45,141 nucleotides of DNA. It comes from a virus. This document shows, in pieces, positions 4,464 through 36,767 of the stretch (the stretch's first letter is position 1; every line of letters begins with the position of its first letter). Both the position numbers and the translations under genes were made by a program. The notes beneath the pieces are model-generated. The model did no database searches. It had not been told where the DNA came from and worked only from the letters and a program-made list of their open reading frames with translations. Location of the stretch: the IMG/VR virus record IMGVR_UViG_3300028831_000169, positions 1-45,141 of that record. One strand, written 5' to 3'.

Positions 4464-4669
4464 TTCGAGACGAGTTTACAAATATTCTTTCGCGCGAGCG
4501 CCGTTATCAACTGAGGCATCAGAGGGATGGGCTTTGTCATTTGTGTTCGAGAAAGAAGGTAACGGCGTTCCATTGTTTGGAGCACGCTATAAACGTGCGT
4601 GAAGCGCAACGCACCAGAAACAAACATAAGCGTCGAAACGTAGGCGCTCTGACCTACCGTATCGCATGA
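4460..4669 (+). CDS. Hypothetical basic protein (69 aa from ATG 4460)
   Basis: ATGA overlap with the upstream stop. Its own stop overlaps the TerL start. Confidence 0.5.
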   Translation: MIRDEFTNILSRERRYQLRHQRDGLCHLCSRKKVTAFHCLEHAINVREAQRTRNKHKRRNVGALTYRIA

Positions 4670-6351
4670 ACGTCCAAGACATCACGGGGTTAGAGGAGCA
4701 CCCGGTTCTTCGTCAGATTCCCGATATTTTGCAGGGGGAAGAACGCGAAGCCGCGATCAACGTTCGTAAACAGATTTTAATAAACGAAGTACTCGATCCA
4801 CTCAGGAACGGGTTTGAGTTAGACATCTGGAAACTGGCTGACGATTGGCGCTCTAAGAAACGACTTCAATATCCTAAAGGGGTAATTTGGGAGATTGACC
4901 TTGGTGGAAATCGCAGCGGCAAAACAATGCGCGCGTCAAAAAGGGTAGTGGAAGATTGCGTTGCTAACCCCGGCCATATTTGGTGGTGTTGCGACGCTAC
5001 TGAGACACAGAGCAGGGCGAATCAACAGCGGTATATTTTCAAGCATCTGCCCTACGAATGGAAGCCTGGTGAGACAGGGAGACTGACAAAAAAGAATAGC
5101 CGGGTAACAAAGGTGACATACTCGGTGGCCGGAGGATTTACTGAGAACAACCTGATTCTTCCGAATGGGAGCGAGATTCACTTTAAGTTCTACGAAATGA
5201 ATGTGGCGAACCTGCCCGGTGTAGAGTTGGATGGGATTTGGGCAGATGAGTTGATACCGTTGCCATGGATTGAGACTCTCGTTTATCGCCTAACGAATCG
5301 TAACGGCATCTTTAATATCACCTTCACACCCGAACAAGGATACACCCCTACGGTTGCAAAGTTTCTTGATGGCGCGACAACATTGCAATGGGCTGACGCT
5401 AAACTGTGTCCACATTTTAATGAGGCCGGAGATTTATGCGGCTACGAACGAATCCCAAAAGTTCAACAACCTCTCGACGATAAAGCCATCGTGATCTACT
5501 TCTACAATGAAGATAATCCCTTCGGGAACTACGAGGGACTCAAAATGGATTTGAAGGGTAAGAGTAAAGCGGAAGTGTTGATGCGCGCATATGGAATAGT
5601 GAGCAAAGCCGCGCACGCGCAGTTCCCTTCGTTCAGTGAGGAGATACACGTAGTTGATCCTGATAAGATTCCCAAACAAGGCACGAACTTTCATGTAGTC
5701 GATCCTGCTGATGGCCGGAATTGGTTTATGATATGGGTGCGGATAGATGAGAAAGGTAGATGGTGGATTTACAGGGAATGGCCGTCACATGGACATTTAG
5801 GCGCGTATGTACCGGGGATAGGCGATCCGGGGCCTTGGGCGATACATGGGGCAGCGGCAGACGGCGAACGTGGCCCGGCGCAAAGTCCGTTCGGGTTTGG
5901 ACTGGACAGATACAAAAATGAAATCGAACGACTTGAAAAAGAAGGGGGCGACGAAACGGTTGAGCGTTGGATGGATTCGCGCTACGGAGCTTCCCCTACA
6001 ACTATTGAAGAAGGCACAACTACGCTTATCGAAAAAATGTCGGAAATCGGCATGGATTTTCTTGCGGCAAGCGGGAAGATGATTTCTGAGGGAGTAGATT
6101 TGATTGCAGATAAACTCGATTACGACAGAGACGTAAAGATTGGCGAATTTTCAGCTAGACTTGCGCGCCTCAATGAGCCACGTCTTTACGTATCGCGTAA
6201 TTGTCCCAACATGATTTTCGCTTTCAAGAATTGGACAGGCAAAGACAAGAACCACGGCGCGTGCAAGGATGGAATCGACTGCGCGAGATACGCGGTTCTG
6301 GCGGGAATAGACTACATTGGCGAGGACTCCTACACATGGAAACGATTTTGA
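4666..6351 (+). CDS. terL: Terminase large subunit
   Basis: Walker A GGNRSGKT and Walker B LDGIWADE. C-terminal RNaseH-like nuclease segment (FHVVDPADGRNWFMIWV). 561 aa. Confidence 0.9.
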   Translation: MNVQDITGLEEHPVLRQIPDILQGEEREAAINVRKQILINEVLDPLRNGFELDIWKLADDWRSKKRLQYPKGVIWEIDLGGNRSGKTMRASKRVVEDCVANPGHIWWCCDATETQSRANQQRYIFKHLPYEWKPGETGRLTKKNSRVTKVTYSVAGGFTENNLILPNGSEIHFKFYEMNVANLPGVELDGIWADELIPLPWIETLVYRLTNRNGIFNITFTPEQGYTPTVAKFLDGATTLQWADAKLCPHFNEAGDLCGYERIPKVQQPLDDKAIVIYFYNEDNPFGNYEGLKMDLKGKSKAEVLMRAYGIVSKAAHAQFPSFSEEIHVVDPDKIPKQGTNFHVVDPADGRNWFMIWVRIDEKGRWWIYREWPSHGHLGAYVPGIGDPGPWAIHGAAADGERGPAQSPFGFGLDRYKNEIERLEKEGGDETVERWMDSRYGASPTTIEEGTTTLIEKMSEIGMDFLAASGKMISEGVDLIADKLDYDRDVKIGEFSARLARLNEPRLYVSRNCPNMIFAFKNWTGKDKNHGACKDGIDCARYAVLAGIDYIGEDSYTWKRF

Positions 6352-6787: not shown

Positions 6788-8905
6788 ATGTCAGCCGGTT
6801 CCGATGAACGTTTGGAGCTAGTGACTGCTCCAAATCTTGAACAAGTCGTCAAGGAACTTAATACCGCTCGCGCCGACGCCGATCAATATTGGCAGGACGC
6901 CCAGAGTGCTCACGCATATTTTAATTGCCTGTGGAAAGGGCAATCAGACGATTTACGTAAACATAGCGATGGTGAAGAGGAAGCGTTCCCGTGGGACGGT
7001 GCGAGCGATGCGCGAGTCCGAGTAGTCCAGCCGTTAATCCGTGAGCACGTTTCTTTCGCTATGTTTACGTTTTTACGTAGCAAAGTTCAGGCACGCGCTG
7101 TTCGTCCGTTGATAGAGGGGAGAGACAGTAATATTGCCGAGCGCATGTTGAAATGGCGCGTGTTTACGCACATGCGCCAGGAACTTTTAACCGAGCTTCC
7201 CCTTGCGTGGACGTGGATGTTTACGCGCGGCATCGTGATGATGCGAATCGAGTGGGAACAGCAACGCACGATTGAGGAAGTCCCTGTTACAGCGCAGGAC
7301 GCTCAGGCACTTTTACAATCAGTTGGAGGCGACGTGTCCGATCTTTTCGGTGATAGCGAACCTACCCCGCAACTGCTGGATATTATTCAGATGTTTTCGC
7401 CGGTGATCGACCGTGATCGTGCTCGAAAAATCGTAAAAGAACTTCGCACCGATCTGATGACAACGGTTCCCATAGTATTTCTGATCCAGAACAAACCCAA
7501 ATGGACGGCAAGACGTTTGGTGCATGACGTTTTGGTGCCGTCAAGTTGCAGCAATGTTCAGAATGAACGCTGGATTTGCGACCGCGAACTTGTGACTGAA
7601 TCAGAATTAACCGACAGAATCACGACCGAAAATTATGATGAAGACTTTGTTGAGGAAGCGATAAAGCACAAGGGCGAATTTGCAGGGTGGCATGTGCAGG
7701 ATCGTTATCAGGCGACAGCAATTGGCGGCGAACGCGATCTAATCGAGCTTCAACATTTTTATTCGCGTAGATTAGTAAAGGGTACGCCCTGTGTTTACCG
7801 GACAATATTTAACGAACCAACTGCCGGTCTATTCCCTGAGCTTGTAGGGGTACACGAAGTTCATCGTTACCGGCACAAACAATATCCGTTTGTAGCGTGG
7901 CGATGGCAGGCCGAACACCGGATGCTTCTGAACGAGCGCGGAATCGCTCACGAAGCGTGGAGCGATGAACGAGACATCAAACGGCAACAGGACGGACTCA
8001 ATGACAGAGGCGATTTAATCAATCGCCCGGTCATGTTTATTCCTACACTTCGATATGAAGCGTTGAAGGGACGGTTCAAGCCTGGTCATTACGTTGGGAT
8101 AAATCGGCCTAACGAACTTAATTTCGGGCCGATTCCGCCTTCAGACGGTACTCCGTTAAAGATAATGGAGCTAGTCAAAATGCGGTTGGAAGAACGCTTC
8201 GCGCTATTCGGAAACACTGTTGATCCAGCATTAAAACAGATTCGACGCGAACATTTGGCGGGACATTTACTTTCGCAGATGGAACAAGTCTTAGAACAAA
8301 CGTGGCAACTACAACAACAATACGAAACGAACGAGGAAGTTCAGAGAGTAGCGGGTAGAAGTTCAATGAATTTTCCTGCCACCACAAAAGAGATTCAGGG
8401 CAAATACGAAATCACGGCCACGATTGATACGCAGATGCTTAACGAAGCGTATGCGGAACAGAAGATAAATCTTCTTGAGAGAGCAATGGCGTTCAAACAA
8501 GAAGGATTACTTTTCAGAATGGCAGTTGAATTGATTGATCCCGATGCCGCCGACGCCATAGCTCAAGACCAGTCTAGTCCTGACGCGATGGAGAAAGAAC
8601 GAAAAGATGAGAAGCACGCTTTTGGATTGATGCTCGCGGGCGTAGAACCGGACTTCCCCGTTTTAGGAAACCACCAATTACGGATGCAAGTGATGCAACA
8701 GATAATGTCGCAACCGAACATGGCGCAACGTTTGGCAAATCTTCCCGACAGTCAGAAGCTTATTCAAAATCGGTTTCAGACGTTCCAACGCCAGATACAG
8801 CAACATCAGGTCAATCCGACAATAGGGAGAACACTTGCCACGCGCGCTTTCCAGCCGAACGCTGCTGCTGACGTAACAGTTTCAAGCAATGGCAGCGAAG
8901 CCTAA
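6788..8905 (+). CDS. Portal protein (705 aa)
   Basis: Size and position after TerL and before the scaffold and capsid genes. No motif verified. Confidence 0.65.
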   Translation: MSAGSDERLELVTAPNLEQVVKELNTARADADQYWQDAQSAHAYFNCLWKGQSDDLRKHSDGEEEAFPWDGASDARVRVVQPLIREHVSFAMFTFLRSKVQARAVRPLIEGRDSNIAERMLKWRVFTHMRQELLTELPLAWTWMFTRGIVMMRIEWEQQRTIEEVPVTAQDAQALLQSVGGDVSDLFGDSEPTPQLLDIIQMFSPVIDRDRARKIVKELRTDLMTTVPIVFLIQNKPKWTARRLVHDVLVPSSCSNVQNERWICDRELVTESELTDRITTENYDEDFVEEAIKHKGEFAGWHVQDRYQATAIGGERDLIELQHFYSRRLVKGTPCVYRTIFNEPTAGLFPELVGVHEVHRYRHKQYPFVAWRWQAEHRMLLNERGIAHEAWSDERDIKRQQDGLNDRGDLINRPVMFIPTLRYEALKGRFKPGHYVGINRPNELNFGPIPPSDGTPLKIMELVKMRLEERFALFGNTVDPALKQIRREHLAGHLLSQMEQVLEQTWQLQQQYETNEEVQRVAGRSSMNFPATTKEIQGKYEITATIDTQMLNEAYAEQKINLLERAMAFKQEGLLFRMAVELIDPDAADAIAQDQSSPDAMEKERKDEKHAFGLMLAGVEPDFPVLGNHQLRMQVMQQIMSQPNMAQRLANLPDSQKLIQNRFQTFQRQIQQHQVNPTIGRTLATRAFQPNAAADVTVSSNGSEA

Positions 8906-10355: not shown

Positions 10356-11447
10356 ATGCCAGCCGTAACAACCAAGGATGAAATCGTAAGGGAAGATATT
10401 AGCAACGTGTACCTGAACATTGACGTTCGGGACACGCCGCTTCTCAACGACATCAAACGCGGAGAAAAACTTAAAAACGTCGATCTGTTTTCGTGGGAAG
10501 TCGAGAAGTACACCGACAACTACGACACGGTAGGAGTACCGGAAAACAAGGATGTCGATCAGTTCGAGGGCAACAAACAGTATCAACTTTACAATCGCTC
10601 CATGAAATTCTGGGGCAAACCGCATGTCACGACCGAATCCAACGACATCAACGTTACCCCTGCTGATTTCGGTAAGATGCGGAAAGAAATCACGAACAAA
10701 ACGATTGAAGCCAAGCGCAAAATCGAGAAACGCATCGCTTCCGATAACGACAGTAAAACCGATGACGGCGTATCACAGGGACGCGAGTTCATGGGGCTTG
10801 GCCGGATCATCAACGATACTACTTCGGTTGGTAGTTCGGGAGCGGCGCTTCCATTCACCGATACGCAGACTGCGATCAATTCACTTTTTAGGACGCCCAC
10901 CGCGCAGATTTACGTTGGCGCGTTGACGGACGTAAACGGAAGCGGTGATGTCACTGCGACTTTTGATGACGCTACGTTCATCGGAATGTTAAAGAGCCGG
11001 TTCGATAACGTAGGCCAAATGAACGAACTGGTTTGCTATTGCGATTCGGTTCTGAAACAGCATTTCTCACAATACATTTCCGGCAGGTACGCGGCGAATG
11101 TGCGGGGATTTACGGCAATAGCCCGGACACCGCAGCAAGCGATTTCGCAAAAAGAATATGCGCTCTACGGAGCGGATATTCTTCAGACCGATTTTGGCAA
11201 TATTCAGATTAAACTGATGAGCTTTATGCCGCGTCGCGCGGATGACGGCACGGTTGCTGGACGCGGCTACTTTCTGGACATGACAAAGATCATGCTTCGT
11301 CCGAGCGGCCTATGGCTGACTTACATGCCGTTGGAGGACAAGGGCGCAGGCCCGCGCGGGTTGATCCAGTCGATCTTGGGATTCCAATACGGCGATCCCA
11401 GAGGACACATGAAAGTTGATCCGAACGTTTTGCAGACAACTAGTTAA
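10356..11447 (+). CDS. Major capsid protein (DUF5309 / SU10-type, HK97 fold)
   Basis: The N-terminal pattern DISNVYLNIDVRDTPLLNDIKRGEKLKNVDLFSWEVEKY matches my recollection of that family. Strong SD. 363 aa. Confidence 0.7.
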   Translation: MPAVTTKDEIVREDISNVYLNIDVRDTPLLNDIKRGEKLKNVDLFSWEVEKYTDNYDTVGVPENKDVDQFEGNKQYQLYNRSMKFWGKPHVTTESNDINVTPADFGKMRKEITNKTIEAKRKIEKRIASDNDSKTDDGVSQGREFMGLGRIINDTTSVGSSGAALPFTDTQTAINSLFRTPTAQIYVGALTDVNGSGDVTATFDDATFIGMLKSRFDNVGQMNELVCYCDSVLKQHFSQYISGRYAANVRGFTAIARTPQQAISQKEYALYGADILQTDFGNIQIKLMSFMPRRADDGTVAGRGYFLDMTKIMLRPSGLWLTYMPLEDKGAGPRGLIQSILGFQYGDPRGHMKVDPNVLQTTS

Positions 11448-24726: not shown

Positions 24727-25566
24727 ATGCCTTCAGCCGGTGACATATACTACCACGCGCTGAGCGGCGCTGGTGAAGATATTGGCAAAGCGATTCAGCT
24801 AAATATTCTGCGTAATCAGAAGCAAAAAGCAGCGATCACGCAGGACATGGCGATTCTGGATAGATTATCGCAGATGCCCGACCCCACCGATCCGACCGGC
24901 AAAAAGACGTTGGTAGATCAAAAAAAGATGATGGCGCTACGCCAGTTAAAAGGCGCTCAACTCCAAGCCGCAGCGGAAGGCGAGATTGCTGCGATTGAAC
25001 TTGGCGATAAAATCTATAAGTCCAGTGCTCCGATTCGCGCACTCACGCAAGGCCCACAAACGACAACGGACGAATCAGGCCAAAAATGGCGGTGGTCAGG
25101 GAAAGAATGGATTCCGGTAGCCGGTTCGAACTCACAACAGAAAGCAGAAGCAGCAAAACAACGCACGCTCGATTCGCGCCTGAAACAATACAACCTGAAT
25201 CGCCGCCTCTTATTTGATTCGTCGCAACATGAAGGCGGCATCTTGCAGAAAGCTGATAAAAATAAGCCTGACAAAACGTTTGTACCTGAAGCTGATCCTG
25301 ATAAGATGACGCATATCAGAGTTGGCTACCAAGACGAAAAGAATCCCGGCAAAATAATTTCAAAATCTGATCTTGAAGGATTACAGGATTTAGCTGCTCA
25401 AAACACCGATGACCCTGAGTGGTCGCAGGGAGCTCTAAAATGGATACGTGACAACCCTCAAGACCCGCGCGCTGCAAAATGGCTGGACGTTCTCAAAAGT
25501 AAAGTCATGGGGAACGTTATCACTGAAGAACCTTTTGAAGCAACTCCTGACGAATCGCAGCCGTGA
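24727..25566 (+). CDS. Internal virion-like protein (279 aa)
   Basis: Track ORF in the ejection-protein block. Its stop overlaps the next start. Confidence 0.5.
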   Translation: MPSAGDIYYHALSGAGEDIGKAIQLNILRNQKQKAAITQDMAILDRLSQMPDPTDPTGKKTLVDQKKMMALRQLKGAQLQAAAEGEIAAIELGDKIYKSSAPIRALTQGPQTTTDESGQKWRWSGKEWIPVAGSNSQQKAEAAKQRTLDSRLKQYNLNRRLLFDSSQHEGGILQKADKNKPDKTFVPEADPDKMTHIRVGYQDEKNPGKIISKSDLEGLQDLAAQNTDDPEWSQGALKWIRDNPQDPRAAKWLDVLKSKVMGNVITEEPFEATPDESQP

Positions 25567-28500
25567 GCGCGTTCGATCCTGACGCAGACCCGCCAGTCAC
25601 GACGCTGTTACGCGGGCTAAATTACGGGCCGGTTGTAGGCGAATTTCATAGAGACGCCATGTTTGGGCCGCAAGGAAACAAGTTAGGCCCAAAAGATGTA
25701 GCGGTTTCACCGGATACAGGGTTGCAACTTGGCGACCTTATCAAAGCTAGAGGGAAAGATTATACCGTAGCGGATTGGAGCTATCACGCGCCGGGACGCC
25801 CAACAAGTCGCACAATCGAGTTTAGAGACGCGCCAGCATCGGGCATGATTCCGGTTCAATTCGTGTCACGCGGTAAACAGAAATCCAGAGTGTTTAATCC
25901 AGACGATCCTATTCCCGGTGAAACGAAACAGACCAAGTTCGATCCTAGCGCGCCGATAGAAACCGTCGATAAAAGCGTTGGAGTACGCGCTGCCGCTCCA
26001 CCGACTGCCGATTCCGAGATACGAAGGGCTGAACCGTTACCGCAATCCGAGCAACCGGGCGGCAAATCTCCGGTTCAGGCTACAGAACGTGAAAAAGCTA
26101 CTTTAGAACACCCGGAAGGTTCACCCGGTTACGATGCAGCGATACGCGATTTGCAGTTGCGCGCTCCGAACATGCTTGAAACCGCTGTCACCAGCGCACT
26201 ACCAAATCTTTACAAAAGCCCAACGCCACCGCTTGAGCCAGTCGAACAAGCCAATACGCCATTTGAAAAAGTAGCGCAATTTATCGAGAACCGCGTTGGA
26301 CTCACAGACGACGAAAGCGAAAAGATCGCTCAAGGTTTTGCTCATTACGTGGCGCGACCGGCAGCAGTGTTATCGGGTAAAGACCCTGACGAAGTAGAAA
26401 AAGGTTTGGTACAACCGTTGGCGGTACGGATAAAATCTCTTACGCGCCCGGAAATGTTAGTTGTTTACCCATTCCTATCAAATCCAGTAGGGCAAATGTG
26501 GATTGCGTCGCAGGTTCTAGCTAATTCGCCTGACAGAGTCAAAGAATGGGCGACAGCCAAAACAGACGAACAAAAAACAGGCGTGATACTGGATTTGGGT
26601 ACGGACGCGCTCATGCTCGTTCCGATAACCCACACGATGTTAAAAAAGACAGTCCTAAAAGGGGGTGTAACAGATGCCATCAAGCCAAGTGATGCACAAA
26701 TTCAAGCACGGGAAACTCCACTCAGGGAGCAAACACGGCCCGAAAGTGAAATCCCGAAAACAAGCGATAGCGATAATGTACAGCGAGCGGTACGCGGAGA
26801 GGAAACACGGACGCTACCCAGAGAAGCCGAAGCACCAACGGTAGCGGATGCTACCCGTTCGGCAGTAGATCGACATGGGGAACTTCTCAGTGAAGGTCAA
26901 CAATTAGGCGATCAAGTCCGGTTACTGCAAAAAGCCGGACTTCCTATCCCTGCCGTCTTACAAAACCGGATCAACACGATAAATGAAATGTTGCGGCAGG
27001 GGTATAATCCCGCGATTGTAGAAAACTTAGCAACCAAGGATATTCACGATGAGTTCGCAGAAATCGTCGCAGAAGAACGGGCAACCAACGGGAACGGCAT
27101 CGGGAAAAAACGGGAAACATCATCTCAAGTCCGATCCGCCAGTGTGGCAGAGCCAGCGGGGAAAACGGTTACTCAAGAAGTTGGAGAAACATTACCCCTT
27201 AACCTAATCGGCGGGCAACGTTCCATTAGAGAACCGCGTGCTCGCGCGTTTGGGTTAAACATCATCGAGAAAGAAGCGCGCCAGACTTGGGGCGACGCAT
27301 GGGATCAAGCCGCAGACCGCGAATCAACTGACCCCGGCGTATCTGAACGGTTGGCGATAGATATTTCAGAGCGTCCAAGAGCAGTAAACACCGTAGAGCA
27401 CGCCCAACTGTTACGGAACATGATCGCAGCGGAAGAAACGCACGCTCGCGCTGTTGATATGGTGAATGACGCCGGGGACGACCTATCCAGAGAACGCGCA
27501 CAAGAAACCCTCACTTCCGCCAGAGACAGATTACAGACCGCATACGACGCAATGGCAAAGAGCGGTACGGAACGTGGTCGCAGCTTGAACGCGATGAAAA
27601 TGGTTGCGGACAAGTATCAGAACTTGGCGCGCATGGAAGCGACAAGGCGCGCGGCCAACGGTGGACAGCCATTGTCACCGGGACAACTCGCGGAAGTTAA
27701 AACGTCGCACGATTCTCTTAAATCCATTCGTGAACGCATGGGAGACGTAGAGAGGGGCAGAGGCTTGGATAAGCAGTTTGCGCGGGCTGTGGCGCGTTCT
27801 GTGATGAACATGAACGAAGCTCCGAAGGGCAGTAAAGGGATTATTGAGTTTCTGGACAGTGAAGCGGATAAAGCCCGGCAACGAATCATTGCGCGCCGGG
27901 GAAGATTAAATGTCGGTTTTGATCCTACTGCGCTAACAGATGAAATCATTATCGGTGCGAGTCATGTTGCACGCGGACTACGGGATTTTGGACAGTGGTC
28001 AGCAAAAATGCTCGATGAGTTCGGAGAACGGATTCGCCCGTATCTGAAGGATATTTATGATCGAGCGGTTGCGATGCGATCAGCCGCACTCGAACGCGCG
28101 TCGGACTTGAAAAAGCTGTCAGCATATAAAACCCGGTTACGCGGGCAAACCGAAACCTTGAGAGCGAAGATTGACGAAGGCGATTTGACCCGAATTATTC
28201 GCAGGAAACTTCCGTTGGATAAAGAAGCGTTTGCGTTGCGTCAGGAATATCAGGCAATGAAGAAACGCTTTGACGACATGATCGAGAGAGACCGTGCCAA
28301 AAACCGTCCGGGCTGGCAGAAACTTACAGACACTTTTGTTGCGTTTGAGCGTGCTATTAAATTAACCGGAATCACAACGATTGGAAAAATAGCGGCAGCG
28401 GCAGGAACACGCATCATTCAATCAATCACTGAAAACGCCGTAGGCGCTATTCTATCGAAAGTGCCGGGACTATCTCGTATCGCCGCGCAAGCTCCAAGGG

Positions 28501-29621
28501 AAGGGCGTTTGTCGTTACCGGCAGAGCGCGCGGGTTTACGCGGTGTTGGTACGGGGATACGCGAGATGCCGCGAGTCGCTACCGGCCAAATCTCTACATA
28601 CGAAACTCGGATTCCATCTTCTAAAATTCTCGGAGCACCCGGACGGATACACGGCGTTCTCAAACGTCCGGCTTGGCGAAACGAGTTTGAACGCAGCAAA
28701 GTGATGTTCACCGAAAGCGCGGAGAAGTTAGGGAAAGACGTTAGCGATCCTGAAGTCCAACAACAAATTTACGATTCGTCGAAAGCCAACGCTGACCGGG
28801 CGATCTTCCTTCAAGACAATATCGCTTCTAGTGCGTGGAACTCTCTAATTCGATCATGGGAATCCAGCAAGAAATTCCCGATAGCCGGATTCGTTTTGTC
28901 GCGTATTGCACGATTCCTTTTACCGATTGTCCGCGTCCCTACAAACGTCGCTCTTGAAACTGGTACAATGATTGGCGGAACTCTCACCGGAACCGGGAAG
29001 CTAATTGGAGTCATGGGGAAAGGATTGGAGAACATTAAACCGGAAGAAGCCGACATGATCCTTCGCCACTACAAAAAGGGACTGATAGGCGCAGGACTGT
29101 TTCTCACAGGTTTTCTTAATCCTGACAATTTCGGTGGGTTCTTTGTACCGAAAGAAAAACGCGAAGGCACAATGCATTGGGGTGACGCGACGATCATGGG
29201 GGTTAGAATCCCGTGGTGGTTGCTTCATGCCCCGCCGTTTTTAGTTATGCAGGCCGGGGCTACTACCGCCAAACTGTTACCTCAACGTGGAGCAGTCGGA
29301 GCGTCATTAGCCACGACTCACGCGCTACTGGACGAAATACCTTTCATGCGGGAACTGAACTTTATCGACTCAGCATTGGGCGAAGGTTGGGGTTCGACTC
29401 GCGCTATCGGCCAATTACTTCAAGGCACAGTTGTACCGCAAGCGTTGAACAACGTTTCACAATGGACAGATCAAAAAGACACAAACGGAAATCCGATTCG
29501 GCGTTATCCTCGAACGGCGATTGATTACGTGAAATTGGGGATACCAGGATTACGCGAGCAAGTTCCGACTACTCCGGCGCGTAAAACTCACCGGAAACAG
29601 AACCTTCTCGCTACCCCGTGA
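25563..29621 (+). CDS. Giant internal virion/ejection protein (1352 aa) with a possible N-terminal 3D/DPBB-like muralytic domain
   Basis: GPKDVAVSPDTGLQLGDLIKARGKDYTVADWSY...TIEFRD resembles the 3D-domain pattern. Long helical middle region and hydrophobic segments near the C-terminus. Confidence 0.5.
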   Translation: MSAFDPDADPPVTTLLRGLNYGPVVGEFHRDAMFGPQGNKLGPKDVAVSPDTGLQLGDLIKARGKDYTVADWSYHAPGRPTSRTIEFRDAPASGMIPVQFVSRGKQKSRVFNPDDPIPGETKQTKFDPSAPIETVDKSVGVRAAAPPTADSEIRRAEPLPQSEQPGGKSPVQATEREKATLEHPEGSPGYDAAIRDLQLRAPNMLETAVTSALPNLYKSPTPPLEPVEQANTPFEKVAQFIENRVGLTDDESEKIAQGFAHYVARPAAVLSGKDPDEVEKGLVQPLAVRIKSLTRPEMLVVYPFLSNPVGQMWIASQVLANSPDRVKEWATAKTDEQKTGVILDLGTDALMLVPITHTMLKKTVLKGGVTDAIKPSDAQIQARETPLREQTRPESEIPKTSDSDNVQRAVRGEETRTLPREAEAPTVADATRSAVDRHGELLSEGQQLGDQVRLLQKAGLPIPAVLQNRINTINEMLRQGYNPAIVENLATKDIHDEFAEIVAEERATNGNGIGKKRETSSQVRSASVAEPAGKTVTQEVGETLPLNLIGGQRSIREPRARAFGLNIIEKEARQTWGDAWDQAADRESTDPGVSERLAIDISERPRAVNTVEHAQLLRNMIAAEETHARAVDMVNDAGDDLSRERAQETLTSARDRLQTAYDAMAKSGTERGRSLNAMKMVADKYQNLARMEATRRAANGGQPLSPGQLAEVKTSHDSLKSIRERMGDVERGRGLDKQFARAVARSVMNMNEAPKGSKGIIEFLDSEADKARQRIIARRGRLNVGFDPTALTDEIIIGASHVARGLRDFGQWSAKMLDEFGERIRPYLKDIYDRAVAMRSAALERASDLKKLSAYKTRLRGQTETLRAKIDEGDLTRIIRRKLPLDKEAFALRQEYQAMKKRFDDMIERDRAKNRPGWQKLTDTFVAFERAIKLTGITTIGKIAAAAGTRIIQSITENAVGAILSKVPGLSRIAAQAPREGRLSLPAERAGLRGVGTGIREMPRVATGQISTYETRIPSSKILGAPGRIHGVLKRPAWRNEFERSKVMFTESAEKLGKDVSDPEVQQQIYDSSKANADRAIFLQDNIASSAWNSLIRSWESSKKFPIAGFVLSRIARFLLPIVRVPTNVALETGTMIGGTLTGTGKLIGVMGKGLENIKPEEADMILRHYKKGLIGAGLFLTGFLNPDNFGGFFVPKEKREGTMHWGDATIMGVRIPWWLLHAPPFLVMQAGATTAKLLPQRGAVGASLATTHALLDEIPFMRELNFIDSALGEGWGSTRAIGQLLQGTVVPQALNNVSQWTDQKDTNGNPIRRYPRTAIDYVKLGIPGLREQVPTTPARKTHRKQNLLATP

Positions 29622-33760: not shown

Positions 33761-33866
33761 TGCGTTCCCTTTAGCGTACGTAATCTCGTGGCCGGTGATC
33801 GTTATCCTCATAGCCGTTATTCACGGGATAGCGTGTAAGTACGGATGGGGATGGGATTGCCAATAG
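33729..33866 (+). CDS. Single-TM peptide (45 aa), not in track
   Basis: MKASSWAKIVDAFPLAYVISWPVIVILIAVIHGIACKYGWGWDCQ. Confidence 0.35.
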   Translation: MKASSWAKIVDAFPLAYVISWPVIVILIAVIHGIACKYGWGWDCQ

Positions 33867-33878
33867 ATTTTGGGGTGA

Positions 33879-33923
33879 GAAACCCCACTTGCAATAGAGC
33901 TTGGTAAATCACGAGACAGGCTA
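33879..33923 (+). promoter_or_regulatory. Recurrent motif copy A (GAAACCCCACTTGCAATAGAGC...ACGAGACAGGCTA)
   Basis: About 70% identical to copies C and D on the other strand. Preceded by the hairpin TGGGGT-gagaa-ACCCCA, which is flanked by two CAATAGA boxes. Confidence 0.45.
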
Positions 33924-33945
33924 ATCTTTTCCTGAAAATAATTGT

Positions 33946-33972
33946 TTGACAGCGCAAGCTGGTTGCGCTAAT
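33946..33972 (+). promoter_or_regulatory. Sigma70-like promoter candidate TTGACA-N15-GCTAAT with an embedded inverted repeat AGCGCAA-gctgg-TTGCGCT
   Basis: Perfect -35 and a 4/6 -10. The predicted start falls 2-4 nt before RNA module 1. Confidence 0.35.
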
Positions 33973-33982
33973 CGTCCTTCAT

Positions 33983-34058
33983 GCGAGTGGTGAAGGAATC
34001 AGATACTTCATATGGAATGAATGCCGAAAGGCGTTTCTGAGTCCGCTTGTTCCCTCGC
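33983..34058 (+). ncRNA. Structured RNA module 1 (76 nt), Y-RNA-like candidate
   Basis: Closing stem GCGAG/CUCGC, bulged U, GG/CC, and an internal loop UGAA vs GCUUGUU. Then a 9-bp helix GGAAUCAGA/UCUGAGUCC with one mismatch at position 4. Apical hairpins UUCAU-AUGGA-AUGAA and GCC-GAAA-GGC. Confidence 0.55.
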
Positions 34059-34066
34059 TAAAACTT

Positions 34067-34131
34067 TGCCGTGGTGAAGGGCGCAGCTACTTCTTGCTAA
34101 GAAACCATGCTGCATCCGTTTGTTCCCGGCA
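34067..34131 (+). ncRNA. Structured RNA module 2 (65 nt), paralogue of module 1
   Basis: Closing stem UGCCG/CGGCA, bulged U, GG/CC, and an internal loop UGAA vs GUUUGUU. Then a 9-bp helix GGGCGCAGC/GCUGCAUCC with a mismatch at the same position 4. Apical hairpin UUCUU-GCU-AAGAA. Confidence 0.55.
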
Positions 34132-34168
34132 TCTCACTTTCGTTGGTTAAACAAGAAGGACGAAAATA

Positions 34169-35503
34169 ATGAAACTGAACGTAGCAAAACAAACTATTCG
34201 TACGCACGAAGGCGCTCCGGCTAAACACATCAATCCCGAACTACAGCTTCGCAGGTCTGTAATGTCCTGTATGCTGTGGGAAGGGGAGTTTTACGAGAAC
34301 GGAGAATCTATATCTAAACGCATTGGCGAAACTATTGCTAAGGTTCGACCTGAAGCAGTCGCCGCGATTGCAGTCGAGGCACGCGAGAAGATGAAACTCC
34401 GGCACGTTCCACTTTTGATCGTGCGCGAGATGGCGAGACTCGCATCCCACAAGGGACACGTTGCCGAAACTCTATCTCGCGTGATCCAGAGGCCAGATGA
34501 GCTTACCGAATTTCTGGCGATCTACTGGAAGGACAAGCGGCAAGCATTGTCCGCTCAGGTGAAGCGTGGACTTGCTGCTGCGTTTCAGAAGTTCAACGCC
34601 TATTCGCTTGCCAAGTACAATCGGGACGGCGCAATTAAACTTCGGGACGTGCTGTTTTTGTCTCACGCCAAACCCAAAGACGATGAACAGGACAAACTAT
34701 GGAAGCAGCTAATTGACGGCACACTTCCTACTCCCGATACTTGGGAAGTAGAATTGTCGAGCGGTAAGGATAAAAAAGAAGCTTGGGCGCGATTGCTCTC
34801 CGAAAACAAACTCGGCGCTCTAGCGTTGCTTCGGAATCTTCGGAACATGAAGCAAGCTGGAATTTCAGACGACGCCATGAGACACGCCCTGAACGTCATT
34901 AAACCTCAACGTGTTTTGCCGTTCCGATTCATTGCGGCTGCTCGGTTTGCTCCCAATCTTGAGCCTGAATTAGAGCAAGCAATGTTCAAATGTCTTACGG
35001 ACAAAAGCAAGATTCCTGGCCTAACCGTTTTGATGGTTGATGTATCTGGTAGCATGGACGCTTCAATTTCAGGCAAGAGCGATCTACAACGCCTTGATGC
35101 TGCTTGTGGACTTGCAATGCTGGCGCGGGAACTCTGCGAGAAAGTGGCCGTGGTGACGTTTTCGGAAAAACTGGTCGTAGTTCCTGCTCGTCGTGGATTC
35201 GCTTTGCGTGATGCAATAGTTCAGTCGCAATCTCACGGTGGCACATATTTAGGTGAGGCTGTATCTCAAATTAAGAATGAAGAGTTTGATCGGTTAATCG
35301 TAATTTCGGATGAACAGGCGCATGATCCTGTTCCTGATATTGGGCGAAAAGCCTACATGATAAACGTTGCCAGCAATAAAAACGGGGTTGGCTACGGGTC
35401 GTGGACGCACATTGATGGATGGAGCGAAGCCGTACTGGATTTCATAAAAGAATTGGATGGATCACAAGAAGTTCTTGCAGAAACAAGCTCGCAAGGGTGG
35501 TAA
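34169..35503 (+). CDS. TROVE-domain Ro60/Rsr-like protein with a C-terminal vWA domain (444 aa)
   Basis: N-terminal TROVE-like pattern (LQLRRSVMSCMLWEGEFYENG..., LALLRNLRNM). vWA MIDAS motif DVSGSM plus a downstream T and D. RBS AAGAAGGA. Confidence 0.8.
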   Translation: MKLNVAKQTIRTHEGAPAKHINPELQLRRSVMSCMLWEGEFYENGESISKRIGETIAKVRPEAVAAIAVEAREKMKLRHVPLLIVREMARLASHKGHVAETLSRVIQRPDELTEFLAIYWKDKRQALSAQVKRGLAAAFQKFNAYSLAKYNRDGAIKLRDVLFLSHAKPKDDEQDKLWKQLIDGTLPTPDTWEVELSSGKDKKEAWARLLSENKLGALALLRNLRNMKQAGISDDAMRHALNVIKPQRVLPFRFIAAARFAPNLEPELEQAMFKCLTDKSKIPGLTVLMVDVSGSMDASISGKSDLQRLDAACGLAMLARELCEKVAVVTFSEKLVVVPARRGFALRDAIVQSQSHGGTYLGEAVSQIKNEEFDRLIVISDEQAHDPVPDIGRKAYMINVASNKNGVGYGSWTHIDGWSEAVLDFIKELDGSQEVLAETSSQGW

Positions 35504-36116: not shown

Positions 36117-36767
36117 TCAGTTCTGAGGACAGGCTGCCCGTAAATTCCAATCCGGTAGATCAACGTCCACGACTACGCTTCCATGTCGTATCATACGGCT
36201 GGCAATTCGCTGATCGTATTTTTCAGCAATCGTTTCCATTGATACATTAGCGGTAATCATTGTCCATTTGTATTCCCTTCGTGTGAAAAACTCGCATAGC
36301 TTGGCGTCTGAAAACTCCGTTCTGTATTCGCTGAAAACGTCGTCAACCACTAGAAAATCCTCATCGCACAATGACAAAAACTGATCGTGCTCCCCGCCTC
36401 TAACGCTGGCCGCGATGTCCAACCACAACTCAAAATTGCATAAAGGAACCCGGCTGGCGACCTTCTTTGCGAGCATAGTCTTTCCAGTGCCGCTCGATCC
36501 GAGTAAACTTAGCCATCGTGGTTTGAATTTCGATTTACGCGGATGATCCAGTGAATAAGCATTGTGTGTTCGTCGGCAGTCCATCCAGTCGAACGCTTCT
36601 CGACCAAAGCGCAGGGATTCCTGCTTCATCTTCTCAAGCTGTTTGTCTCCGCAGGTTTGGAATTCAGGAAACCACTTTTCCCAATCCTCGATACTGACCG
36701 GATTTTCCGGCGTTGAGGGTGTCATCATTTCTATTGCTACGGGAATTATGTCTTTGACTTGTTGCAC
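36117..36767 (-). CDS. DnaC/IstB-like AAA+ helicase loader
   Basis: Walker A GSSGTGKT and Walker B FLVVDDV. Lies downstream of the replisome organiser. The start may be an internal Met. Confidence 0.7.
   Translation of the reverse strand: MQQVKDIIPVAIEMMTPSTPENPVSIEDWEKWFPEFQTCGDKQLEKMKQESLRFGREAFDWMDCRRTHNAYSLDHPRKSKFKPRWLSLLGSSGTGKTMLAKKVASRVPLCNFELWLDIAASVRGGEHDQFLSLCDEDFLVVDDVFSEYRTEFSDAKLCEFFTRREYKWTMITANVSMETIAEKYDQRIASRMIRHGSVVVDVDLPDWNLRAACPQN

What the first reader, a model, noticed from the sequence alone, without database searches (positions are those of the whole stretch)
33946..34168. Two tandem paralogous structured RNA modules directly upstream of the Ro60/TROVE gene: candidate Y-RNA-like partners or a Ro-binding leader
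Modules at 33983-34058 and 34067-34131 share one architecture:
- a 5-bp closing stem and a bulged U;
- a GG/CC pair;
- an asymmetric internal loop (5' UGAA against 3' G(C/U)UUGUU);
- a 9-bp helix with a mismatch at the same fourth position;
- UAC followed by a 5-bp hairpin.

The loop sequences are conserved: UGGUGAAGG on the 5' side and CCG(C/U)UUGUUCC on the 3' side.

The helices differ in sequence but stay complementary. The pairs are GCGAG/CUCGC vs UGCCG/CGGCA, GGAAUCAGA/UCUGAGUCC vs GGGCGCAGC/GCUGCAUCC, and UUCAU/AUGAA vs UUCUU/AAGAA. This is covariation between paralogues.

The conserved strands resemble, from memory, the Ro-binding stem of metazoan Y RNAs (5' UGGUCCGAAGG... / ...CUUGACUA 3').

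A TTGACA-N15-GCTAAT promoter candidate would start transcription 2-4 nt before module 1. I see no terminator between module 2 and the RBS of the TROVE gene. The modules could therefore be processed Y-like RNAs or an autoregulatory 5' leader.

In bacteria, Y RNAs (for example YrlA) are typically encoded next to rsr and carry a tRNA-like domain. I see no T-arm or D-arm here, so the architecture would be atypical.
Basis: partly seen in the sequence, partly recalled or inferred. Interest (0 to 1): 0.85.

Follow-up and report, generated by a model that had tools for sequence, protein, structure and literature searches.

The report
Two minimal phage Y RNAs upstream of Ro60
Just upstream of a phage's Ro60-like gene lie two small RNA hairpins from a widespread family of Ro-partner "Y RNAs"; they are real and conserved but lack the usual tRNA-like part, so this is a new example of something already known.

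Summary
Modules 33983-34058 and 34067-34131 (+ strand) fold as described and share one frame: a 5-bp closing stem, a bulged U, GG:CC, a UGAA / G(C/U)UUGUU internal loop, a 9-bp helix, then UAC and a UUC...GAA hairpin.

The frame is not peculiar to this window. Around homologues of the window's TROVE/vWA protein (49-72% identity) I found 252 such modules on the gene's strand and 3 on the other. They form tandem arrays of 1-5. A covariance model built without the window's sequences finds only these two modules in the 45-kb window (E 6e-7 and 0.011).

In related arrays some modules carry a tRNA-like insert that hits Rfam YrlA below threshold (E down to 2e-10). The window's two have only short hairpins, like the described YrlB/Yrn2-type Y RNAs.

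The protein's only solved relative is Thermus phage phiLo Ro60. That protein also has two upstream Y-like RNAs, shown to bind it and host PNPase.

Verdict: the modules are very probably Ro partners co-transcribed with rsr. This is a new member of a known kind. Whether they are released or act as a leader is unresolved. Interest is moderate to low.

The parts
33946..33951 (+). -35 box TTGACA of the candidate sigma-70-type promoter of the array
   Evidence: Read directly. About 12 non-redundant related arrays have a TTGAC(A) box at the same distance from their first module. Not called by the consensus scan because of the 15-nt spacer.
33967..33972 (+). -10-like hexamer GCTAAT (4 of 6, 15-nt spacer). 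It ends 10 nt before module 1.
   Evidence: Weak on its own.
33983..34058 (+). Module 1, a minimal Y-RNA-like hairpin of the two-hairpin type. Closing stem 33983-87/34054-58; bulged U 33988; GG 33989-90 : CC 34052-53; UGAA 33991-94 against GCUUGUU 34045-51; helix 33995-34003/34036-44; UAC 34004-06; hairpin 34007-21; GNRA hairpin GCC-GAAA-GGC 34023-32.
   Evidence: MFE fold; structural scan; R1 hit 33991-34051 at 19.8 bits, E 0.011; nearest neighbours and RNAalifold of the two-hairpin type.
34059..34066 (+). 8-nt spacer UAAAACUU between the modules; a likely processing site if the modules are released
   Evidence: Spacers of similar length separate modules in related arrays. Processing is inferred.
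34067..34131 (+). Module 2, a minimal Y-RNA-like hairpin of the single-hairpin type. Closing stem 34067-71/34127-31; bulged U 34072; GG 34073-74 : CC 34125-26; UGAA 34075-78 against GUUUGUU 34118-24; helix 34079-87/34109-17; UAC 34088-90; hairpin UUCUU-GCU-AAGAA 34091-34103; ACCAU 34104-08.
   Evidence: MFE fold; structural scan; R1 hit 34069-34129 at 37.2 bits, E 6e-7; RNAalifold with 10 relatives.
34132..34168 (+). 37-nt leader with RBS AAGAAGGA (34153-34160). No terminator and no promoter call inside it.
   Evidence: In about 20 related loci the last module ends 36-48 nt from the start codon.
34169..35503 (+). rsr: Ro60-like TROVE + vWA protein, 444 aa, with the MIDAS DxSxS motif kept (VDVSGSM)
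   Evidence: Pfam TROVE E 6e-20, VWA_2, vWA_Ro60; PHROG 850 E 7.5e-56; full-length match to Thermus phage phiLo Ro60 9KOP/9L5Y, E 1e-25.

Best explanation
The two modules are minimal Y RNAs, that is, non-coding partners of the phage's own Ro60/Rsr protein. They belong to a large conserved family of Rsr-linked RNA modules whose Ro-binding stem is homologous to that of YrlA-type bacterial Y RNAs.

Proposed mechanism:
1. A sigma-70-type promoter (-35 at 33946) starts transcription a few nucleotides before module 1. With no terminator in between, one precursor carries M1, M2 and the rsr mRNA (inferred).
2. Each module folds on its own into a long hairpin (shown by folding and covariation).
3. The newly made Rsr ring binds the conserved lower part of the hairpin: closing stem, bulged U, GG:CC, and the (U/C)GAA / GYUUGUU loop. 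This corresponds to the published GNCGAAN0-1G Rsr-recognition motif (inferred from homology).
4. Nucleases cut in the 8-nt spacer and the 37-nt leader and trim back to the protein-protected stems. This releases RNAs of about 65-76 nt, as reported for M. smegmatis YrlA/YrlB (inferred).
5. The apical part (UAC linker, UUC...GAA hairpin, A-rich 3' strand; in M1 also a GNRA hairpin) takes the place of the tRNA-like effector domain. It gates the Ro cavity and/or tethers Ro to a host protein. The most likely host protein is PNPase, as shown for D. radiodurans, Salmonella and Thermus phage phiLo (speculative here).
For: Family membership:
- A structural scan of 109 loci around homologues of the window's Rsr finds 252 modules with this frame on the rsr strand and 3 on the other. 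In the window it finds exactly these two on the + strand.
- 76 of 86 loci with at least 700 nt upstream have at least one upstream module.

Structure:
- In 117 distinct non-window frames, 97.1% of cells are paired, against 43-58% when the 3' partner is slid.
- 14 of 15 pairs show changes on both sides. The covariation score is 0.87 against 0.21 when shuffled.
- Test free of selection on pairing: 59 Rsr-linked 5' arms were chosen by 5' sequence alone. 56 of them find an antiparallel complement of at least 12/13, against 13 under a parallel-pairing decoy.
- Unconstrained RNAalifold recovers the frame.

Independent detection:
- Covariance model R1, built without window sequences, hits only 34069-34129 (E 6e-7) and 33991-34051 (E 0.011) in 45 kb on both strands.

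Link to known Y RNAs:
- tRNA-like sister modules in related arrays hit Rfam YrlA at 25-56 bits, E down to 2.4e-10.
- The 5' motif GG(C/U)GAAG fits the published GNCGAAN0-1G (PMC4201824).

Reverse association:
- An IMG/VR scan with a 5'-arm pattern alone gave 80 loci. 58 had a complete module, and 44 of those had an Rsr homologue in the stretch held. None of the 22 loci without a module did.

Protein:
- TROVE + vWA. Its only solved relative is phiLo Ro60, which binds two upstream Y-like RNAs and host PNPase.
- Four of the eight phiLo RNA-contact basic residues are kept.

Precedent for co-transcription and processing:
- M. smegmatis YrlA and YrlB lie upstream of rsr and come from a single precursor.
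Against: - There are no expression, end-mapping or binding data for this phage.
- Thermodynamic stability is only modestly above shuffles (z -1.7 to -2.6).
- No Rfam family (Y_RNA, YrlA) scores the modules even at E <= 10.
- The motif has U where the published motif has C. In phiLo Yrl2 a C-to-U change lowered affinity about 3-fold, although U is common at this position in the family.
- The promoter's -10 is weak.
- The frames used for the main covariation count had been selected for pairing. That count is therefore partly circular and rests on the controls.
- R1 E-values are rough because calibration was shortened.
Confidence: 0.8

Rival explanations
1. The modules are never released. They act only in cis, as a structured 5' leader of the rsr mRNA through which Rsr autoregulates its own translation or stability.
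For: - There is no terminator and no promoter call between M2 and the RBS. Any rsr transcript from the upstream promoter must therefore carry both modules.
- The last module ends only 37 nt from the ATG. A 36-48-nt distance recurs in about 20 related loci.
Against: - The same modules lie downstream of rsr in 7 loci, and more than 200 nt (up to about 2.4 kb) upstream in many others. A fixed leader role does not fit those cases.
- Arrays reach 5-7 modules, including YrlA-like ones whose bacterial homologues are free RNAs.
- In M. smegmatis, upstream Y RNAs are processed from the precursor.
- The RBS is not predicted to be sequestered by the modules.
- The two roles are not mutually exclusive.
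Confidence: 0.12
2. The modules are decaying remnants of YrlA-type Y RNAs that lost their tRNA-like domains and no longer have a function.
For: - The closest relative (L005, Rsr 72% identical) has five modules, including two tRNA-like ones. The window has only two short ones.
- Both window helices carry a mismatch.
Against: - Every conserved single-stranded motif of the frame is intact in both modules, and 12 of 13 scored pairs are kept in each.
- Arrays with only minimal modules recur in about eight other distinct loci.
- Both minimal subtypes are conserved across distant loci with compensatory changes.
- Hairpin-only Y RNAs are bound by Rsr in three bacteria.
Confidence: 0.05
3. The similarity is chance, or the element works as DNA (an operator or inverted repeat) rather than as RNA.
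For: Both strands of each module fold with similar energies.
Against: - Strand asymmetry is 252 to 3 across the family.
- G.U pairs are frequent in the helices; for example 32 of 117 frames at one pair, and these would be A.C on the other strand.
- Motif counts stand against 0.00-0.07 expected.
- The R1 hits have E 6e-7 and 0.011.
Confidence: 0.02

Closest known systems
YrlA (Rfam RF02553), the tRNA-like bacterial and phage Y RNAs of Chen et al. 2014 (PMC4201824)
   Same: - Encoded next to rsr on the same strand.
- The 5' and 3' ends pair into a long stem carrying the GNCGAAN0-1G-type motif (here GGUGAAG).
- A short unpaired linker (UAC; AUGCU in the Rfam consensus) leads to the apical domain.
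- Sister modules in the same family of arrays hit RF02553.
   Different: - There is no T arm, D arm or acceptor-like hairpin. The apical domain is a 13-15-nt hairpin, plus a GNRA hairpin in M1.
- RF02553 gives no hit even at E <= 10.
- Even the tRNA-like relatives stay below the gathering score of 69 bits.
YrlB (S. Typhimurium, M. smegmatis) and Yrn2 (D. radiodurans): Rsr-bound long hairpins without a full tRNA-like domain (PMC4201824)
   Same: - A second, smaller Y RNA formed by a long 5'/3' stem with a small apical loop.
- Encoded beside rsr. In M. smegmatis it lies upstream of rsr and is processed from one precursor.
   Different: - The published YrlB sequences found homologues only in close relatives, and no family model exists.
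- In those species a tRNA-like Y RNA is also present. In the window none is.
Yrl1 and Yrl2 of Thermus phage phiLo with phiRo60 (PMC12135203; PDB 9KOP, 9L5Y)
   Same: - Two tandem Y-like RNAs immediately upstream of a phage Ro60 that is the window protein's closest solved relative.
- A CGAA-type motif sits in a stem-bulge-stem. One RNA has two hairpins and the other has one.
- Both bind the phage Ro60 and host PNPase.
   Different: - No detectable sequence or structure homology: R1 finds nothing in the phiLo locus.
- The proteins share only remote sequence similarity (E 1e-25).
- The phiLo RNAs were defined by motif plus RNAfold, not by comparative analysis.
Metazoan Y RNAs (Rfam RF00019)
   Same: - Both have the layout terminal stem, single-nucleotide 5' bulge, 2 bp, internal loop, upper stem.
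- The 5' strand UGGUGAAGG resembles UGGUCCGAAGG of the RF00019 consensus shown.
   Different: - RF00019 does not score the modules.
- The bulged base is U, not C.
- The alignment by sequence and the alignment by layout do not coincide.
- There is no 3' oligo-U or La-binding tail.

Membership tests
YrlA (Rfam RF02553) | Scores at or above the family's gathering threshold (69 bits) | tested here: not met
   No hit in the window at gathering thresholds. No YrlA hit at E <= 10 in 33850-34250 or at E <= 5 in the whole window.
YrlA (Rfam RF02553) | tRNA-like effector domain (T arm, acceptor-like hairpin, D arm) | tested here: not met
   ARAGORN finds nothing in the window. There is no tRNA or YrlA hit and no T-loop motif within 1.2 kb upstream of rsr. 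The apical parts are hairpins with 5-nt and 3-nt loops.
YrlA (Rfam RF02553) | GNCGAAN0-1G motif near the 5' end, within the stem formed by the 5' and 3' ends | tested here: inconclusive
   Both modules have GGUGAAG, with U in place of the C. U at this position is common in the family (for example TGAA in 49 and TGTA in 28 of 254 modules). Whether it is equivalent for binding is untested.
YrlA (Rfam RF02553) | Encoded within 4 kb of a Ro60 orthologue | tested here: met
   M2 ends 37 nt before the TROVE/vWA ORF, on the same strand.
Bacterial and phage Y RNAs in the broad sense (including YrlB, Yrn2, phiLo Yrl1/2) | Long stem formed by the RNA's 5' and 3' ends, containing a bulged helix with the Ro-recognition motif and supported by covariation | tested here: met
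   Folds; family covariation with controls; RNAalifold.
Bacterial and phage Y RNAs in the broad sense (including YrlB, Yrn2, phiLo Yrl1/2) | Physically bound by Ro60/Rsr, with Rsr-dependent accumulation | not testable with these tools
   Needs EMSA or co-immunoprecipitation and Northern blots. The only indirect support is that the closest solved homologue binds its own upstream Y-like RNAs.
Rsr-linked module family defined here (model R1, alignment A2) | Detected by a covariance model built only from other loci | tested here: met
   R1 hits at 37.2 bits (E 6e-7) and 19.8 bits (E 0.011) are the only hits below E = 1 in the window.
Rsr-linked module family defined here (model R1, alignment A2) | Full frame: 5-bp closing stem, bulged U, (G/A)G:C(C/U), YGNA loop, 8-bp helix, NUACUUC, 7-nt G-start 3' loop | tested here: met
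   Both modules pass the structural scan with 12 of 13 scored pairs.
Metazoan Y RNA (Rfam RF00019) | Match to the family covariance model | tested here: not met
   No RF00019 hit on the modules at E <= 10. The only RF00019 hit in the window is elsewhere (8563-8653, - strand) and is probably chance.
phiLo Yrl1/Yrl2 sequence family | Sequence and structure homology of the RNAs | tested here: not met
   R1 finds no significant hit in the phiLo rsr locus L110; the best is E 0.27, downstream of the gene. The arrangement is analogous, but RNA homology is not shown.

The most novel reading that the evidence does not exclude
The window belongs to a minority of phages whose Ro60 comes only with minimal Y RNAs. 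On this reading, tRNA mimicry is dispensable for a phage Ro ribonucleoprotein.

More broadly, the conserved Ro-binding frame would be a portable scaffold carrying interchangeable apical effector domains: tRNA-like, anticodon-arm-like hairpin, or GNRA hairpin. These are assembled in tandem arrays of up to 5-7 modules. The arrays would act as multi-adaptor sets that let one Ro ring engage several host targets during infection.

The minimal subfamily is absent from Rfam. As far as the papers I could read show, it has not been described as a family.
Probability: 0.45. Interest if true: 0.55.

Novelty: new member of a known kind. Interest (0 to 1): 0.35.

Why it matters
Y RNAs without a tRNA-like domain have been hard to find by computer. 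Chen et al. 2014 state that such RNAs eluded bioinformatic discovery and that YrlB searches found only close relatives.

This window, with the related loci, shows that the Ro-binding stem alone is conserved enough to be modelled. The conserved elements are the bulged U, GG:CC, the YGNA / GYUUGUU loop, the 8-bp helix and UACUUC. With such a model, minimal Y RNAs can be annotated next to phage and bacterial rsr genes.

The same loci show that some phage 'tRNA' annotations are pieces of Y modules.

For phage biology the window offers a compact test system of one Ro60 and two small RNAs of about 70 nt. It could be used to ask what a phage Ro particle does to host RNA decay. It does not open a new kind of system.

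Tried and rejected
- **Near-identical DNA.** Searches in the phage and E. coli collections found nothing. Relatives had to be reached through the protein.
- **MAFFT alignment of whole minimal modules (A1).** It misaligned the 3' arms because the apical inserts vary in length. I replaced it with fixed-register frames (A2).
- **First pairing control.** Replacing antiparallel pairing with parallel pairing in the scanner still gave many hits at the permissive threshold (86 against 252). The reason is that the 5' arms are G-rich and the 3' arms pyrimidine-rich. I therefore relied on perfect-pair counts (113 against 2) and on a set chosen by 5' sequence only.
- **Consensus promoter scan.** Support for the promoter is only by analogy with related arrays.
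- **R1 on the phiLo locus.** No hit, so the RNAs cannot be filed as homologues of Yrl1/Yrl2.
- **Rfam Y_RNA hit at 8563-8653 (-).** I considered it as a possible third Y RNA and set it aside. It is antisense inside a 705-aa ORF and folds no better than shuffles (z = -0.29).
- **Intrinsic terminator after the second module of L015.** Not confirmed by the terminator scan.
- **Review PMC10870794.** Not available.

Full report
**1. What is in the window**

The window is a phage genome. It encodes a large terminase (4666-6351), a major head protein (10356-11447), a DnaC-like helicase loader (36117-36767, - strand) and other phage proteins. ORF 34169-35503 (+) encodes a 444-aa TROVE + vWA protein (Pfam TROVE E 6e-20, VWA_2, vWA_Ro60; PHROG 850).

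The only solved structures that match this protein by sequence are those of Thermus phage phiLo Ro60 (9KOP, 9L5Y). The match has E 1e-25 and spans the full length, and the MIDAS DxSxS motif is kept.

RNAfold, without constraints, gives the proposed structures for each module alone and for the pair. The stability excess over shuffles is modest (z = -2.55, -1.74 and -2.0). The shared 5' strand GTGGTGAAGGNNNCAGNTACTTC occurs twice against 0.00 expected, and the 3' strand TCCGYTTGTTCCC twice against 0.07 expected.

The window has no tRNA gene and no Rfam hit at gathering thresholds. No Rfam family scores the modules even at E <= 10.

**2. Relatives**

No near-identical DNA exists in the phage or E. 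coli collections. By protein, the Rsr has homologues at about 55% identity in 43-kb Xanthomonas/Xylella phages. It also has homologues in Brevundimonas and Caulobacter jumbo phages, RsoM2USA, crAss-like phages and others.

In the Xanthomonas phages the 680-nt gap upstream of rsr holds five tandem modules with the same frame as the window's. Three of them carry inserts of about 80 nt that hit Rfam YrlA at 25-56 bits, with E down to 2.4e-10, below the gathering score of 69. The other two are short hairpins like those of the window.

I then fetched 14 IMG/VR, 80 metagenome and 11 GTDB loci around homologues of 49-72% identity. The closest (L005, 72%) has five modules, two of them tRNA-like. YrlA hits at 31-40 bits fall on the tRNA-like modules of seven close relatives.

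**3. The family and its structure**

I wrote a scanner for the frame. It requires:
- a 5-bp closing stem;
- one bulged base;
- (G/A)G paired to C(C/U);
- a YGNA loop;
- a helix (8 bp in most modules);
- the motif N-U(A/U)C-N-YC;
- an insert;
- the 3' strand of the helix;
- a 4-9-nt 3' loop.

It finds 252 modules on the rsr strand and 3 on the opposite strand in 420 kb of loci. In the window it finds exactly M1 and M2 on the + strand, plus one poor hit on the - strand. The bulged base is U in 250 of 254 modules. The GG:CC pair switches to AG:CU in 41.

On 117 distinct non-window frames the named structure is 97.1% paired, against 43-58% when the 3' partners are slid. Fourteen of the 15 pairs show changes on both sides. 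The covariation score is 0.87 against 0.21 in shuffles.

Those frames had been selected for pairing, so I added two controls:
- A decoy scanner with parallel instead of antiparallel pairing reaches perfect 13/13 pairing in 2 cases, against 113 for the real rule.
- I took 59 distinct 5' arms from an IMG/VR scan that used a 5'-arm pattern only, keeping those in loci with an Rsr homologue. Of these, 56 have an antiparallel complement of at least 12/13 within 190 nt, against 13 under the decoy.

RNAalifold without constraints recovers the frame for each window module aligned with its nearest neighbours. Frequent G.U pairs and the strand asymmetry show that the element works as RNA on the rsr strand.

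**4. Membership of the window's modules**

Covariance model R1 was built from the 117 non-window frames and run over the whole window on both strands with filters off. It returns 34069-34129 (37.2 bits, E 6e-7) and 33991-34051 (19.8 bits, E 0.011). Nothing else falls below E = 1. M1 scores lower because of the penalty for its 28-nt apical insert.

There is therefore no third module and no hidden tRNA-like module in the window.

**5. Subtypes**

M1's nearest neighbours share its apical design: a UUC-started hairpin followed by a GNRA-tetraloop hairpin. They are L092_548, L051_1200, L028_216, L005_2534 and the second module of L007. The GNRA hairpin covaries among them: GCC-GAAA-GGC, GCCC-GCAA-GGGC, CCC-GAAA-GGG.

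M2's neighbours share UAC-UUC-N(3-9)-GAA followed by an A-rich 3' strand.

Both minimal designs are therefore recurrent, not accidents of this genome. Arrays with only minimal modules and no T-loop motif upstream occur in the window and in about eight other distinct loci. They are a minority: most arrays include at least one tRNA-like module. That agrees with the generalisation of Chen et al. 2014, to which the window is an exception.

**6. Transcription context**

The -35 box TTGACA (33946-33951) is perfect. The -10 (GCTAAT, 33967-33972) matches 4 of 6 positions with a 15-nt spacer and was not called by the consensus scan.

About 12 non-redundant phage-type arrays have a TTGAC(A) box whose -10 ends 5-9 nt before their first module. 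A dedicated promoter is therefore plausible by analogy.

No terminator-like or promoter-like site lies between M2 and the RBS. The rsr mRNA must then begin upstream of, or within, the modules.

The last module ends 36-48 nt from the start codon in about 20 loci; in the window the distance is 37 nt. In other loci modules lie hundreds of nucleotides away, or downstream of rsr (7 loci). This argues that the modules are not merely a translational leader.

**7. Comparison with the literature**

Chen et al. 2014 (PMC4201824) reported the following:
- YrlA-type RNAs lie near Ro60 in 254 bacteria and 22 phages.
- A GNCGAAN0-1G motif is probably recognised by Rsr.
- Second, hairpin-shaped Y RNAs exist (YrlB, Yrn2).
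- In M. smegmatis, YrlA and YrlB lie upstream of rsr and are processed from one precursor.
- Such RNAs eluded bioinformatic discovery.

The YrlA structure paper (10.1101/312249) describes a Ro60-binding module joined by short unpaired loops to the tRNA-like effector module. The window modules have that layout, with a small hairpin in place of the effector module.

A 2025 paper (PMC12135203) shows that Thermus phage phiLo has two Y-like RNAs upstream of its Ro60, one with two hairpins and one with a single hairpin. They bind the protein through a CGAA motif and basic residues, and they form complexes with host PNPase. Four of the eight basic contact residues reported there are conserved in the window protein (K141 to K, K142 to R, R169 to R, R178 to K in the alignment). 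The phiLo RNAs themselves are not detectably homologous to the window's family.

**8. Verdict**

The modules are very probably Y-RNA-like partners of the phage Ro60, of a minimal type without a tRNA-like domain. They belong to a large, well-conserved family that Rfam covers only in part.

The kind of system is known: Y RNAs next to rsr, also in phages, also in pairs upstream of the gene. I therefore rate this a new member of a known kind, with moderate to low interest.

Not shown here:
- binding to the protein;
- release from the precursor;
- the effector engaged by the apical hairpins.

Noticed in passing
window 8563-8653 (- strand): This is the only relaxed-threshold Rfam hit in the window, and it is to the metazoan Y_RNA family RF00019 (33.1 bits, gathering score 38, E 0.005 for the whole window). 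It lies antisense inside the 705-aa ORF 6788-8905 and folds no better than shuffles (z = -0.29). It is probably chance, but a curious coincidence in a genome that encodes Ro60.
   Followed up: partly
L001 2110-2179 and 2331-2398; L002-L004 2324-2394: The 'tRNA' features called by ARAGORN (tRNA-Glu, tRNA-Asn) or annotated in GenBank (tRNA-Thr) in the Xanthomonas/Xylella phages start within a few bases of the first base of tRNA-like Y modules. They are probably mis-annotated pieces of YrlA-like RNAs rather than decoding tRNAs.
   Followed up: partly
All fetched modules; window 34007-34021 and 34091-34103: In about half of the modules the hairpin right after UAC begins with UUC. The commonest loop size is 7 nt, and 26 of 38 such loops read YU-NNN-RN like an anticodon loop. 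The apical hairpin of minimal modules may therefore be a vestigial anticodon arm, in line with the published idea that Y RNAs derive from tRNAs. The window's loops are shortened to 5 and 3 nt.
   Followed up: partly
L005 2510-2900 (also L019, L020, L026): Consecutive modules of the closest relative's array are separated by a conserved spacer, CGAUC(U/C)CUUUGG. This may be a processing site. The window's spacer (UAAAACUU) does not share it.
   Followed up: no
L130 (IMGVR_UViG_2974566103_000001, 308-kb contig, same length as Caulobacter phage CcrPW), 1-1384: Seven modules with the full frame are packed into a 1.4-kb stretch. This is the largest array seen.
   Followed up: no
L007 450-2362 and 4524-5373: The rsr and Y-module array of this 55-kb viral contig is flanked on both sides by about 17 bona fide tRNA genes. 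The window has no tRNA gene at all.
   Followed up: no
L015 2874-2960 (same as L018): The second of two minimal modules has an extended GC-rich closing stem followed by UUUUCUUUUUU. This could terminate transcription before rsr. The simple terminator scan did not call it.
   Followed up: partly
window 25563-29621 (+): This 1352-aa ORF has a region (residues 573-844) matching a DarB-like antirestriction PHROG (E 4.5e-13).
   Followed up: no
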